From IMG/VR virus record IMGVR_UViG_2778261224_000004: a DNA stretch of 47,754 bases. The stretch is one strand, 5' to 3'. A program made the translations under genes and the position numbers. Position 1 is the first letter of the stretch. The number at the start of each line of letters is the position of its first letter. Source of the DNA: a virus. Its lineage: Duplodnaviria > Heunggongvirae > Uroviricota > Caudoviricetes. This document shows positions 38,070 to 38,912 of the stretch, one piece after another. The notes beneath the pieces are model-generated. The model saw only the letters and a program-made list of their open reading frames with translations. It was not told the origin of the DNA and ran no database searches.

Positions 38070-38089
38070 AAGCGGGCTAACGCCCGCTT
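38070..38089 (+). terminator. Hairpin (candidate terminator) after the 124-aa ORF
   Basis: AAGCGGGC-TAAC-GCCCGCTT perfect 8-bp stem; downstream tract AT-rich rather than a clean T run. Confidence 0.45.
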
Positions 38090-38200
38090 ATATGATTATA
38101 GATTTATATAATTATATAAAACGCTTTTCATCAGCCAAAAAGTTGGTTATGCTTACCTCGTTCTATAAATATAGATTTATAGAATTATATAACCAAACAC
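38085..38200 (+). promoter_or_regulatory. Two copies of the AT-rich ATTATAGATTTATAtAA motif upstream of parA (promoter/centromere candidate)
   Basis: Motif at about 38090-38115 and 38165-38190; a third copy lies upstream of parG at 38861-38900. Confidence 0.45.
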
Positions 38201-38869
38201 ATGGAGTCTCGACAAATGACTATCTCTGTAGGTATTTTCAACGGAAAAGGCGGCGTAACCAAATCAACAATTGCCCGTGCTTTAGCAGTTGCTTATGCAA
38301 AGGCTGGCTGGAATGTATGCCTGATCGATATGGATGTGCTTAACGGAACGGTAACGCGTTGGGTACAACGCAGAATGGCCAACAATATCGAACCAGCAAT
38401 CGCGGCGCAGCCGTGCGGCACACCATCACAAGTCCAGAAAATCATCGAATCAGAAGTATACGACCTGGTTATCGTCGATGGCGGTGCCTACGCATCTGAA
38501 TCAGTACCGAAGCTATCTGAATTTCTGGATATGGTTATTTTGCCAACCCGATTCTCTACCGATGACCTGGAAACCACCGTTAACACTGCTCACGGCATCG
38601 TTAAAAAGGGTGTACCAATCAAGAAAATTTGCATGGTGTTTTCCGGCGCGGCTGAAAACGAAGCTGACTATATTGAAGCCCAAGAGTACCTGGCTAATAC
38701 GCCATACTTTGTTGTCGATAAGTACATTCCCCACAAGCCAGCTCTGAGCAAAGCTCAGGATAAGGGCTTAAGCCTCATTGAGTGCTCATACGTTGCGCCA
38801 CGCAAAAAGGCAGACGACGTTATTCAGGGGATTATCAACCAGCTTGAGGCTCTGACTACTGCCGCGTAA
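38201..38869 (+). CDS. parA: ParA/ParF-type partition ATPase (start may be Met 38216)
   Basis: 222-aa ORF; deviant Walker A FNGKGGVTKST near N-terminus. Confidence 0.8.
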   Translation: MESRQMTISVGIFNGKGGVTKSTIARALAVAYAKAGWNVCLIDMDVLNGTVTRWVQRRMANNIEPAIAAQPCGTPSQVQKIIESEVYDLVIVDGGAYASESVPKLSEFLDMVILPTRFSTDDLETTVNTAHGIVKKGVPIKKICMVFSGAAENEADYIEAQEYLANTPYFVVDKYIPHKPALSKAQDKGLSLIECSYVAPRKKADDVIQGIINQLEALTTAA

Positions 38870-38912
38870 TATATAATTATAGTTTTATAGATTTATATAA
38901 GAGGGGATACAC

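What the first reader, a model, noticed from the sequence alone, without database searches (positions are those of the whole stretch)
38085..38900. Dispersed AT-rich motif (TATATAATTATAGATTTATATAA-like) concentrated around parA/parG and upstream of many operons
At least eight copies, in the same orientation relative to the downstream gene: three flanking parA/parG (about 38090-38115, 38165-38190, 38861-38900), one in each 112-bp cassette, one upstream of the tRNA (28595-28625) and one upstream of gene 32821..33123 (33125-33150). It could be the par centromere/operator bound by the ParG-like protein, a shared promoter element, or the site of another regulator. The scatter is too regular for random AT-rich DNA.
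Basis: seen in the sequence. Interest (0 to 1): 0.55.

Follow-up and report, generated by a model that had tools for sequence, protein, structure and literature searches.

The report
Dispersed binding-site arrays of partition protein
The AT-rich motif is real: eight 32-bp arrays of an 8-bp repeat that most likely bind the small ParG-like partition protein of this E. coli phage-plasmid, three at the partition genes and five next to other small gene units, so one protein may both segregate the plasmid and control a set of its genes.

Summary
The window is a circular 47.7-kb E. coli phage-plasmid; E. coli ATCC 25922 carries the same element. It holds exactly eight arrays. Each is four tandem 8-bp units, TATA[T/G]A[A/T]T, and they are the only strongly AT-rich 28-mers in the genome. 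They lie far above chance even when composition is held fixed.

Three arrays bracket parA and the 82-aa gene downstream. Four end just upstream of a -35-like hexamer. Three directly abut a ribosome-binding site.

The 82-aa protein belongs to a family with a ribbon-helix-helix (RHH) signature and a disordered basic N-terminal tail, the ParG/omega architecture.

In 27 of 30 related phage loci carrying this ParA/ParG-like pair, the DNA upstream of parA is periodic at 8 bp. The unit sequence changes by lineage along with the protein's beta-strand residues. Most loci also carry arrays far from par.

Best reading: the arrays are iterated centromere/operator sites of a type Ib partition protein that also acts at distal promoters, like omega of pSM19035. 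Binding and function are inferred, not shown. This is a new variant of a known kind, of moderate interest.

The parts
38089..38120 (+). Array S5: TATATGAT TATAGATT TATATAAT TATATAAA. It follows a terminator-like hairpin (38073-38090) and ends 4 bp upstream of the -35-like hexamer of the parA promoter.
38125..38153 (+). parA promoter-like site TTTTCA-17 nt-TATGCT, sandwiched between S5 and S6. Read by eye: 8/12 consensus matches, below the scan tool's threshold.
   Evidence: sequence; same layout as the cassette promoters found; inferred
38162..38193 (+). Array S6: TCTATAAA TATAGATT TATAGAAT TATATAAC, between the -10-like hexamer and the parA ribosome-binding site (operator position).
38216..38869 (+). 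parA: 217-aa Walker-type partition ATPase with no N-terminal DNA-binding domain (type Ib size).
   Evidence: Pfam CbiA/ParA/MipZ; NCBIfam ParA_partition aligned 5-206 of 203, below cutoff; nearest solved partition ATPase is ParF of TP228, E=3e-4; annotated ParA in L001
38870..38901 (+). Array S7: TATATAAT TATAGTTT TATAGATT TATATAAG. It fills the parA/parG-like intergenic gap and abuts the ribosome-binding site.
   Evidence: the same position is occupied in Salmonella, Serratia, Leclercia and many viral contigs
38913..39161 (+). 82-aa ParG-like gene: disordered basic N-terminal tail (MAAPSKPPKKNSKGVPP...) plus a C-terminal strand-helix-helix segment (QMAFNVDPEFKREYKTFASSMDMSLKEVLTKSFELLKAQY). 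Proposed reader of the arrays.
27455..27486 (-). Array S1 at the 5' end of cassette 27366-27479. It sits upstream of TTTACA-17-TATGGT (27448-27420) and of the unit orf89+orf65, which is closed by the terminator at 26881-26858.
34332..34363 (-). Array S4 at the 5' end of cassette 34243-34356. It sits upstream of TTTACA-17-TATGGT (34325-34297) and the DUF3560/primase-like gene 33180-34247.
43244..43275 (-). Array S8 at the 5' end of cassette 43155-43268. It sits upstream of the unit orf126 (42778-43158) + HTH protein (42442-42714), which is closed by the hairpin at 42394-42367.
33115..33146 (-). Array S3. It follows the hairpin at 33150-33167 and directly abuts the ribosome-binding site of the 93-aa MarR-like gene (32821-33102). 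The translation start region GGAnnCTCGACAATG resembles that of parA.
28592..28623 (+). Array S2. It lies between the last lysis-cluster gene (stop at 28746, minus strand) and tRNA-Met (28377-28452, minus strand). Orientation is nearly symmetric and its role is unclear.

Best explanation
The motif is the iterated binding site of the phage-plasmid's type Ib partition system.

Proposed binding (inferred). Each array is four 8-bp units. One dimer of the 82-aa ribbon-helix-helix ParG-like protein is proposed to sit on each unit through its beta-ribbon, so about four dimers coat 32 bp cooperatively. This follows ParG on the ACTC boxes of TP228 (8-bp register) and omega on the heptads of pSM19035.

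Proposed roles (inferred). S5 and S6 sandwich the parA promoter, and S7 fills the parA/parG gap. Together they would form the centromere on which ParA is recruited through the protein's basic N-terminal tail, and also the auto-operator of the par operon. The five distal arrays carry the same units, so the same protein should load there too. S1, S4 and S8 sit at about -38 to -70 of three near-identical promoter cassettes. S3 abuts a ribosome-binding site. These would place several short, terminator-bounded units under the partition protein's control, and/or act as extra centromere sites.

What is shown: the arrays, their statistics, their positions, their conservation, the gene pair, the family-wide 8-bp periodicity, and the unit/beta-strand co-variation. 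What is inferred: binding itself, one dimer per unit, repression rather than activation, and centromere activity.
For: 1. Non-random arrays.

2. The arrays are conserved in number and position while the flanks diverge. The ATCC 25922 plasmid has the same eight arrays. The Salmonella plasmid has eight syntenic arrays at 72-91% identity, while the S5-S6 spacer is only 55% identical.

3. Serratia marcescens p2 has a ParG-like protein 50% identical, the same cI-orf-parA-parG synteny and different structural genes. It again has eight arrays, 3 at par and 5 elsewhere, but with a different unit (TTAAAGAT/TTAAATAA).

4. In 36 of 37 viral-contig relatives of ParA, a member of the same small-protein family lies immediately downstream. 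In 27 of 30 of these loci the strongest short-range periodicity upstream of parA is 8 bp (mean 18/24 against 10.6-12.7 for other lags). Arrays at about -125 and -50 and at the parA/parG junction recur, and 16 of the 22 related loci scanned also carry 1-5 arrays more than 1.2 kb away, with 0 expected in shuffles.

5. A non-phage IncFII plasmid of Leclercia, and identical cassettes in Erwinia, Pantoea and Pectobacterium, carry the ParA/ParG-like pair with TATA-type 8-bp arrays. Only ParA and the ParG-like protein are shared by all array-bearing replicons.

6. Beta-strand residues track the unit sequence: A/S-F-N with TATAGATT, N-F-N with TTAAAGAT, N-F-K with TTCGTTAA, G-F-K with GCTAATT, N-F-K-I with GAATTCTT, N-F-Q with TTTAATTC.

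7. RHH signature. 32 of 80 family members hit Pfam RHH_10, 21 hit Antitox_RHH and 5 hit ParG. The family profile's best PDB hits are 56B RHH (E=0.15) and ParG 1p94 (E=0.2), the latter aligned 30-76 to 27-73. The AF2 model has a disordered 1-46 and two helices, and its top Foldseek hits are almost all RHH proteins, TM 0.64-0.87 normalised by target, rmsd 1-2.3 A.

8. Precedents. ParG boxes lie on an 8-bp register with one dimer per box (PMC3130281). Omega heptad arrays sit in three promoter regions and act as both parS sites and operators (PMC3074150).
Against: No binding, footprint, transcription start or stability data exist.

The co-variation table rests on about 8 independent unit types and is confounded by phylogeny, since every gene of a lineage changes together.

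The arrays of this lineage are extremely AT-rich and each TATATAAT unit contains a perfect TATAAT. Host RNA polymerase, H-NS or Fis could therefore also act there.

Four boxes were a weak centromere for TP228 ParG.

S2 fits neither the promoter-proximal nor the ribosome-binding-site class. The position at -38 to -70 is also compatible with activation rather than repression.
Confidence: 0.72

Rival explanations
1. The arrays are generic AT-rich promoter architecture. They would be UP-element-like enhancers and/or nucleation sites for host nucleoid proteins (H-NS, Fis), or clusters of -10-like TATAAT hexamers used directly by sigma-70 RNA polymerase. No dedicated plasmid protein would be involved.
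For: S1, S4, S8 and S5 occupy about -38 to -70 and end in an A-tract (TATATAAAAAG) just before the -35-like hexamer. TATATAAT units contain perfect TATAAT. These are the only very AT-rich stretches of the genome.
Against: Composition does not explain the strict 8-bp register or the shared unit. Homologous arrays in related phages keep the 8-bp period and positions but are not AT-extreme and contain no -10-like hexamers (TTCGTTAA, GAATTCTT, GCTAATT). S7 and S3 have no room for a promoter downstream. An 8-bp repeat is out of phase with the helix, so it would not give phased A-tract curvature (inference). The sigma-70 scan found no excess of promoter-like sites (19 against 25 expected).
Confidence: 0.1
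2. The arrays are operators of a different phage-plasmid regulator. Candidates are the CI-like repressor, the 124-aa protein upstream of parA, the MarR-like 93-aa protein or the 90-aa HTH protein. The closeness to par would be incidental.
For: A CI-like repressor gene lies just upstream of par in the same orientation in E. coli, Salmonella, Serratia, Vibrio phage VPHZ6 and contig L040. Two small regulators (MarR-like, HTH90) sit directly downstream of arrays S3 and S8 and could be autoregulators.
Against: CI has its own candidate operators, four ACCAC-N5-GTGGT palindromes in and next to the cI/early divergent region. orf124, MarR93, orf126, HTH90 and orf89 have no homologue in Serratia p2, which keeps the 3+5 array layout. 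The Leclercia/Erwinia-type plasmid cassette has the arrays with only ParA and the ParG-like protein; the neighbouring 226-aa protein has no HTH or S24 signature. Tandem direct 8-bp units suit RHH proteins, not dimeric HTH repressors (established knowledge).
Confidence: 0.08
3. Only the three par-proximal arrays are functional ParG-like sites. The five distal copies would be passengers, spread with the duplicated promoter/leader cassettes by recombination, with no role in partition or regulation.
For: S1, S4 and S8 are part of 114-nt repeats that are 90-97% identical, so they could have spread as a block. S2 has no obvious target.
Against: Distal arrays persist in number and position in Salmonella and Serratia although the cassettes differ in sequence. 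In Serratia they changed unit in step with the par arrays. Distal arrays recur in distant phage lineages. S3 and S2 are not part of the 114-nt repeat.
Confidence: 0.08

Closest known systems
TP228 parFGH: ParG (RHH) on the parH centromere and OF operator
   Same: Small Walker ParA followed by a roughly 80-aa protein with a flexible N-terminal tail and an RHH-like C-terminus. Sites are arrays of short boxes on an 8-bp register upstream of the ATPase gene. The same sites serve as centromere and auto-operator. Box orientation is tolerated either way (PMC3130281).
   Different: Box sequence differs (ACTC + AT spacer against TATA[T/G]A[A/T]T). TP228 has 12+8 contiguous boxes at one locus, while here 8 arrays of 4 units are scattered over 16 kb, with one array between the two genes. 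The protein does not reach the Pfam ParG threshold. ParA is only distantly related to ParF (E=3e-4).
pSM19035 omega/delta: omega as centromere-binding protein and global regulator
   Same: An RHH protein with a disordered N-terminus. Arrays of contiguous short iterons lie in several different promoter regions (delta, omega, copS) and act both as parS sites and as operators, so partition, copy control and maintenance genes form one regulon (PMC3074150). This is the best functional analogy for the distal arrays.
   Different: 7-bp heptads WATCACW in arrays of 7-10, against 8-bp units in arrays of 4. A Gram-positive plasmid, not a phage. Three promoter regions per copy against eight sites. No sequence relationship shown.
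Prophage-plasmid N15: SopB with four separate IR centromere sites
   Same: A phage that lives as a plasmid and carries several separate centromere sites (IR1-4) rather than one cluster. That they are spread through the phage genome is from my own knowledge of Ravin & Lane 1999 and Grigoriev & Lobocka 2001, cited.
   Different: N15 uses a type Ia system: a large HTH ParB (SopB) and single palindromic sites. It has no RHH protein and no tandem 8-bp units.
RK2/IncP KorB with 12 OB sites
   Same: A partition protein whose sites are scattered over the replicon and which doubles as a global transcriptional regulator (own knowledge; 'scattered across the genome' in PMC5016525).
   Different: KorB is a ParB-family HTH protein that binds 13-bp palindromes, and RK2 is a conjugative plasmid, not a phage.

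Membership tests
Type Ib plasmid partition system (small ParA + small centromere-binding protein + iterated centromere) | Walker-type ParA of about 200-220 aa lacking an N-terminal DNA-binding domain | tested here: met
   217 aa. Pfam CbiA/ParA/MipZ from residue 5. NCBIfam ParA_partition aligned over 5-206 of 203, but below the curated cutoff.
Type Ib plasmid partition system (small ParA + small centromere-binding protein + iterated centromere) | Small dimeric RHH centromere-binding protein encoded immediately downstream, with a flexible N-terminal tail | tested here: met
   82-aa gene 44 nt after parA. Family-level RHH hits (RHH_10 32/80, Antitox_RHH 21/80, ParG 5/80). PDB profile hits 2kel and 1p94 at E=0.15-0.2. 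AF2 shows a disordered 1-46 plus two helices. Foldseek top hits are nearly all RHH. Each single signal is weak; dimerisation was not tested.
Type Ib plasmid partition system (small ParA + small centromere-binding protein + iterated centromere) | Array of short repeats upstream of parA serving as centromere/operator | tested here: met
   S5 and S6 flank the promoter-like site. 8-bp periodicity upstream of parA in 27/30 related loci. The presence of the repeats is shown; centromere function is not.
Type Ib plasmid partition system (small ParA + small centromere-binding protein + iterated centromere) | Specific binding of the small protein to the repeats, and ParA-dependent stabilisation of a plasmid carrying them | not testable with these tools
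   Needs EMSA/footprinting, ChIP and stability assays.
Pfam ParG (PF09274) | Sequence match to the ParG model at the curated threshold | tested here: not met
   No Pfam hit at E<=0.1 for the window protein. Only 5 of 80 relatives give weak ParG hits, best E=2.7e-4. It works like ParG but is not filed as a ParG family member.
Omega-type global-regulator centromere-binding protein (pSM19035) | Iteron arrays located in several distinct promoter regions of the replicon | tested here: met
   Arrays lie upstream of promoter-like sites at S1, S4, S8 and S5 and next to the starts of other genes (S3, S6, S7). The promoters are consensus predictions only.
Omega-type global-regulator centromere-binding protein (pSM19035) | Contiguous 7-bp heptads WATCACW | tested here: not met
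   The period is 8 bp and the unit is TATA[T/G]A[A/T]T.
N15-type dispersed centromeres | Type Ia ParB/SopB (HTH) binding single palindromic sites | tested here: not met
   The partner protein is 82 aa and RHH-like, and the sites are tandem direct units. Only the dispersal is shared.
Sigma-70 UP element / intrinsic promoter | Function explained by AT-richness at -40 to -60 without a specific protein | tested here: inconclusive
   Position fits for 4 of 8 arrays. The strict 8-bp unit, and GC-containing units at homologous positions in relatives, argue against it as the conserved property.

The most novel reading that the evidence does not exclude
A widespread, undescribed family of RHH partition proteins in phage-plasmids (E. 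coli, Salmonella, Serratia, and Vibrio/marine phages) acts as master regulator of the 'plasmid mode'. The same protein that builds the segregation complex would occupy 8-bp arrays at a handful of promoter cassettes and intergenic sites across the phage genome. That would couple plasmid inheritance to expression of a fixed regulon (par, a primase-like gene, small regulators), and possibly to the lysis/lysogeny state. Recognition would be re-programmed between lineages by one or two beta-strand residues.
Probability: 0.35. Interest if true: 0.7.

Novelty: new variant of a known kind. Interest (0 to 1): 0.55.

Why it matters
Phage-plasmids are common carriers of genes in Enterobacteria. This par module is in 71 of 5,426 complete E. 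coli genomes, including the reference strain ATCC 25922. How they coordinate plasmid maintenance with phage gene control is poorly known.

If the arrays are bound by the ParG-like protein, three things follow. First, this element gives a compact, experimentally easy example of a type Ib partition protein acting at eight sites on a phage genome. Second, it gives a simple rule, 8-bp arrays next to a ParA/small-RHH gene pair, for finding centromeres and regulons in many uncharacterised phages. Third, the natural set of protein/unit pairs could serve to study how RHH beta-strands read DNA.

The partition mechanism itself would be conventional.

Tried and rejected
1. Direct Pfam, NCBIfam and PDB sequence searches with the 82-aa protein gave nothing. 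Only the family profile built from the exhaustive HMMER search exposed the RHH signal.

3. The search for related loci with the ParG-like alignment failed because no stretch was conserved enough, so I used ParA alignments. The genome-contig scan failed with the six-sequence ParA alignment. With a four-sequence alignment it returned only 7 loci, all of the Leclercia type.

4. CI-like repressor as the array reader: rejected. Distinct ACCAC-N5-GTGGT palindromes sit at its own promoter region, and the arrays occur without a CI gene next to par in Leclercia-type plasmids.

5. 'Array upstream of the tRNA': the tRNA-Met gene is on the other strand relative to S2's slightly better orientation, and a long hairpin lies between them. 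I could not assign a target to S2.

6. Assignment to the pSLy3 phage-plasmid group: rejected. That group belongs to the SSU5 supergroup.

7. Literature searches for the related Yersinia phages and for phage-plasmid RHH partition or dispersed arrays found no description in the held library. That library is incomplete.

8. The partial match at 9382-9397 inside the tape-measure gene is two units only and is treated as chance.
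Full report
WHAT THE WINDOW IS. The first and last 77 bases are identical, so the window is a circular replicon of 47,677 bp. It is 99.9% identical over the tested 6 kb to E. coli plasmids NZ_CP064105 and NZ_CP099756, and 96% identical to Yersinia phages vB_YpM_39/41/44. The annotated twin (L001) shows a myovirus structural module, lysis genes, a CI-like repressor, ParA, RepA and toxin-antitoxin genes, so the element is a phage-plasmid. Rfam finds a P1-like immunity region (isrK, C4 antisense RNA ahead of an antirepressor), a ryfA-like RNA and one tRNA-Met. 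The par module occurs in 71 of 5,426 complete E. coli genomes, and 71 of the 72 places are on plasmids. The 48.5-kb plasmid of ATCC 25922 is one of them.

THE OBSERVATION. Aligned on their last unit and read toward the adjacent gene, the eight sites are each four tandem 8-bp units:
- S1 CATAGAAT TATATAAT TATAGATT TATATAAA
- S2 TATATATT TATATAAT TATAGAAA TATATATT
- S3 TATAGAAT TATATATT TATATAAA TGTATAAG
- S4 TCTATAAA TATATAAT TATAGATT TATATAAA
- S5 TATATGAT TATAGATT TATATAAT TATATAAA
- S6 TCTATAAA TATAGATT TATAGAAT TATATAAC
- S7 TATATAAT TATAGTTT TATAGATT TATATAAG
- S8 CTATTATT TATATAAT TATAGATT TATATAAA

The unit consensus is TATA[T/G]A[A/T]T. The 12-mer TATAGATTTATA with at most 1 mismatch occurs 14 times against 0.33 expected. 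These are the only eight 28-mers with at least 26 A+T in the genome.

Lag-8 self-match is 17.0/24 against 9.9 +/- 0.8 (maximum 13 in 5000 shuffles), and pairwise identity is 24.9/32 against 13.7 +/- 0.5. In a PWM scan every hit above 15 bits maps to the eight arrays except one 16.8-bit partial match at 9382. Orientation toward the adjacent gene is preferred by 5-15 bits for seven arrays. S2 is nearly symmetric.

ANATOMY. S5 follows a terminator-like hairpin and ends 4 bp before TTTTCA-17-TATGCT. S6 lies between that -10-like hexamer and the parA ribosome-binding site. S7 fills the 43-nt gap between parA and the 82-aa gene and abuts its ribosome-binding site.

S1, S4 and S8 form the 5' ends of three 114-nt repeats that are 90-97% identical. 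Each repeat reads array-AAAGTGC-TTTACA-17 nt-TATGGT, then a leader of about 50 nt, GGAG and ATG. The scan tool calls this promoter-like site at S1 and S4. Each cassette heads a short unit closed by a terminator-like hairpin: orf89+orf65, a DUF3560/primase-like gene, and orf126 plus an HTH protein.

S3 follows a hairpin and abuts the ribosome-binding site of a MarR-like 93-aa gene, whose start region (GGACGCCTCGACAATG) resembles that of parA (GGAGTCTCGACAAATG). S2 lies between the lysis cluster and tRNA-Met and fits neither class.

THE PROTEIN. The 82-aa product has no direct Pfam, NCBIfam or PDB sequence hit, and word-based search finds only relatives of 79% identity or more. An exhaustive HMMER search with a profile of those relatives found 102 small proteins. 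Their alignment shows a basic, proline-rich N-terminus (MA..KPPKK..KG.PP) and a C-terminal LNFKV..EF.REFK.FAA..DMSM..LL..FE..K segment.

I therefore treat it as RHH-like with ParG/omega architecture, not as a member of Pfam ParG. ParA is a 217-aa Walker ATPase, and the nearest solved partition ATPase is ParF (E=3e-4).

COMPARATIVE EVIDENCE LINKING THE ARRAYS TO THE PROTEIN.

(a) The Salmonella Weltevreden plasmid 3 has a ParG-like protein 89% identical over the aligned 64 residues. It keeps eight arrays of the same unit at syntenic places. The arrays are 72-91% identical, while the S5-S6 spacer is 55% and parA is 81% identical.

(b) Serratia marcescens p2 has a ParG-like protein 50% identical, the same cI-orf-parA-parG order and a different virion module. 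It again has eight arrays, three at par and five elsewhere, but the unit is TTAAAGAT/TTAAATAA/ATCTTTAA.

(c) The Leclercia plasmid pLEC-2975 is not a phage. It carries the ParA (46%)/ParG-like pair with TATA-type arrays on an 8-bp register upstream of parA and between the two genes. The identical cassette is in Erwinia, Pantoea, Pectobacterium and Shimwellia.

(d) Vibrio phage VPHZ6 (ParA 43%) has TTCGTTAA-type units at 8-bp spacing on both sides of the parA promoter, and three-unit arrays at four other intergenic sites.

(e) Of 37 viral-contig relatives of ParA, 36 have a member of the small-protein family directly downstream, with E between 1e-16 and 1e-37. In 27 of 30 loci the best short-lag self-similarity in the 300 nt upstream of parA is at lag 8, mean 18/24 against 10.6-12.7 for lags 5-14. 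Arrays at about -125 and -50 and at the gene junction recur, and 16 of the 22 related loci scanned have 1-5 further arrays more than 1.2 kb away, against 0 in block shuffles.

(f) Unit sequences fall into about eight types, and the residues of the predicted beta-strand change with them: A/S-F-N with TATAGATT, N-F-N with TTAAAGAT, N-F-K with TTCGTTAA, G-F-K with GCTAATT, N-F-K-I with GAATTCTT, N-F-Q with TTTAATTC and N-L-Y with the Leclercia TATA type. The otherwise very similar GAATTCTT and GCTAATT proteins differ in the strand at N against G and at the flanking hydrophobic residues (I/L, I/V).

(g) Only ParA and the ParG-like protein are common to all array-bearing replicons. orf124, MarR93, orf126, HTH90 and orf89 are absent from Serratia p2.

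(h) The CI-like repressor has a separate candidate operator set, four ACCAC-N5-GTGGT palindromes at 36787-36801, 36808-36822, 36890-36904 and 37641-37655.

HOW IT MOST LIKELY WORKS. By analogy with ParG and omega, the 82-aa protein should bind one dimer per 8-bp unit through its beta-ribbon and coat each 32-bp array cooperatively. For ParG, one dimer binds per ACTC box, the boxes are separated by 4-bp AT spacers, and the arrays serve as both centromere and operator (PMC3130281). For omega, one dimer binds per heptad, and heptad arrays in the delta, omega and copS promoter regions act both as parS sites and as operators (PMC3074150).

S5 and S6 bracket the parA promoter, which suggests autorepression, and together with S7 they would form the partition complex that recruits ParA through the basic tail. 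Because the distal arrays carry the same units, they should be occupied too. At S1, S4 and S8, bound protein would lie immediately upstream of the -35, where it could block upstream (UP-element/alpha-CTD) contacts or polymerase binding. At S3, S6 and S7 it would lie on the start of the message.

The arrays themselves and their comparative behaviour are shown. Binding, stoichiometry, the direction of regulation and centromere activity are inferred. I put 0.72 on the arrays being sites of the ParG-like protein with a partition/operator role. I am less sure (about 0.5) that the distal arrays regulate transcription rather than only adding centromere sites.

RIVALS.
- Generic AT-rich promoter or nucleoid-protein sites (0.10) explain neither the 8-bp register nor the GC-containing units at homologous positions in relatives.
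- Another regulator (0.08) is disfavoured by points (g) and (h) above.
- Distal copies as passengers of the duplicated cassette (0.08) is disfavoured by their persistence and by the concerted change of unit in Serratia.

COMPARISON AND NOVELTY. The par-proximal part is an ordinary type Ib partition locus of a not-yet-described RHH subfamily. The scattering of identical arrays over promoter cassettes of a phage genome resembles omega (several promoter regions), KorB (scattered sites) and N15 SopB (four separate IR sites). I found no description of it for an RHH/type Ib system in phage-plasmids in the held literature, and that library is incomplete. I rate it a new variant of a known kind, interest 0.55.

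LIMITS. All RHH matches are weak individually. The co-variation rests on few independent lineages. The promoter and terminator calls are consensus predictions. No experiment was possible.

Noticed in passing
window 27366-27479, 34243-34356, 43155-43268 (minus strand): Three 114-nt cassettes, 90-97% identical, sit in front of three unrelated genes. Downstream of the array each has TTTACA, a palindrome (T)AGGAAAAAATTTCCTA centred near -22, TATGGT, a leader of about 50 nt with a hairpin, GGAG and ATG. Salmonella and Serratia relatives keep the architecture with different sequence, including a -22 palindrome (TAGGACTAAAAGTCCTA) and compensatory changes in the leader hairpin. The -22 palindrome recalls P1 late (Lpa-type) promoters (my own recollection, not tested).
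   Followed up: partly
window 36787-36801, 36808-36822, 36890-36904, 37641-37655: Four ACCAC-N5-GTGGT palindromes lie in the cI/early divergent region and just after cI. They are probable operators of the CI-like HTH/S24 repressor (36942-37598).
   Followed up: partly
window 28463-28545: An imperfect inverted repeat with 34-nt arms (85% complementary, 15-nt loop) lies between array S2 and tRNA-Met (28377-28452, minus strand). A similar hairpin is present in the Salmonella relative. Function unknown.
   Followed up: no
window 40227-41835 and 39559-39855: A P1/P7-like immI module: isrK-like RNA (40227-40299), C4 antisense RNA (40324-40412), a small icd-like ORF (40466-40657) and an ORF6N antirepressor (40654-41835). 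A ryfA-like RNA lies on the minus strand (39559-39855).
   Followed up: no
window 38203-38218 and 33100-33115: The translation start regions of parA (GGAGTCTCGACAAATG) and of the MarR-like gene after S3 (GGACGCCTCGACAATG) are alike. The same CTCGACAATG is seen in Serratia and Salmonella, which suggests a second duplicated 'array + start region' module.
   Followed up: partly
window 21440-25320: Three genes with ParB/Srx N-terminal domains lie just upstream of the terminase genes. One is annotated as methyltransferase-domain-containing in the Salmonella relative. They are unrelated to the type Ib par locus.
   Followed up: no
window 1-77 and 47678-47754: An exact 77-nt terminal duplication shows that the window is a circularly permuted complete replicon of 47,677 bp.
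   Followed up: yes
L040 15044-15090, 15531-15555, 15916-15950 and equivalents in L024, L027, L029, L030, L042, L045, L046: In the TTCGTTAA-type phage contigs, three distal arrays spaced about 480 and 390 nt apart each precede a small gene of unknown function. The layout is cassette-like and parallels S1, S4 and S8.
   Followed up: partly
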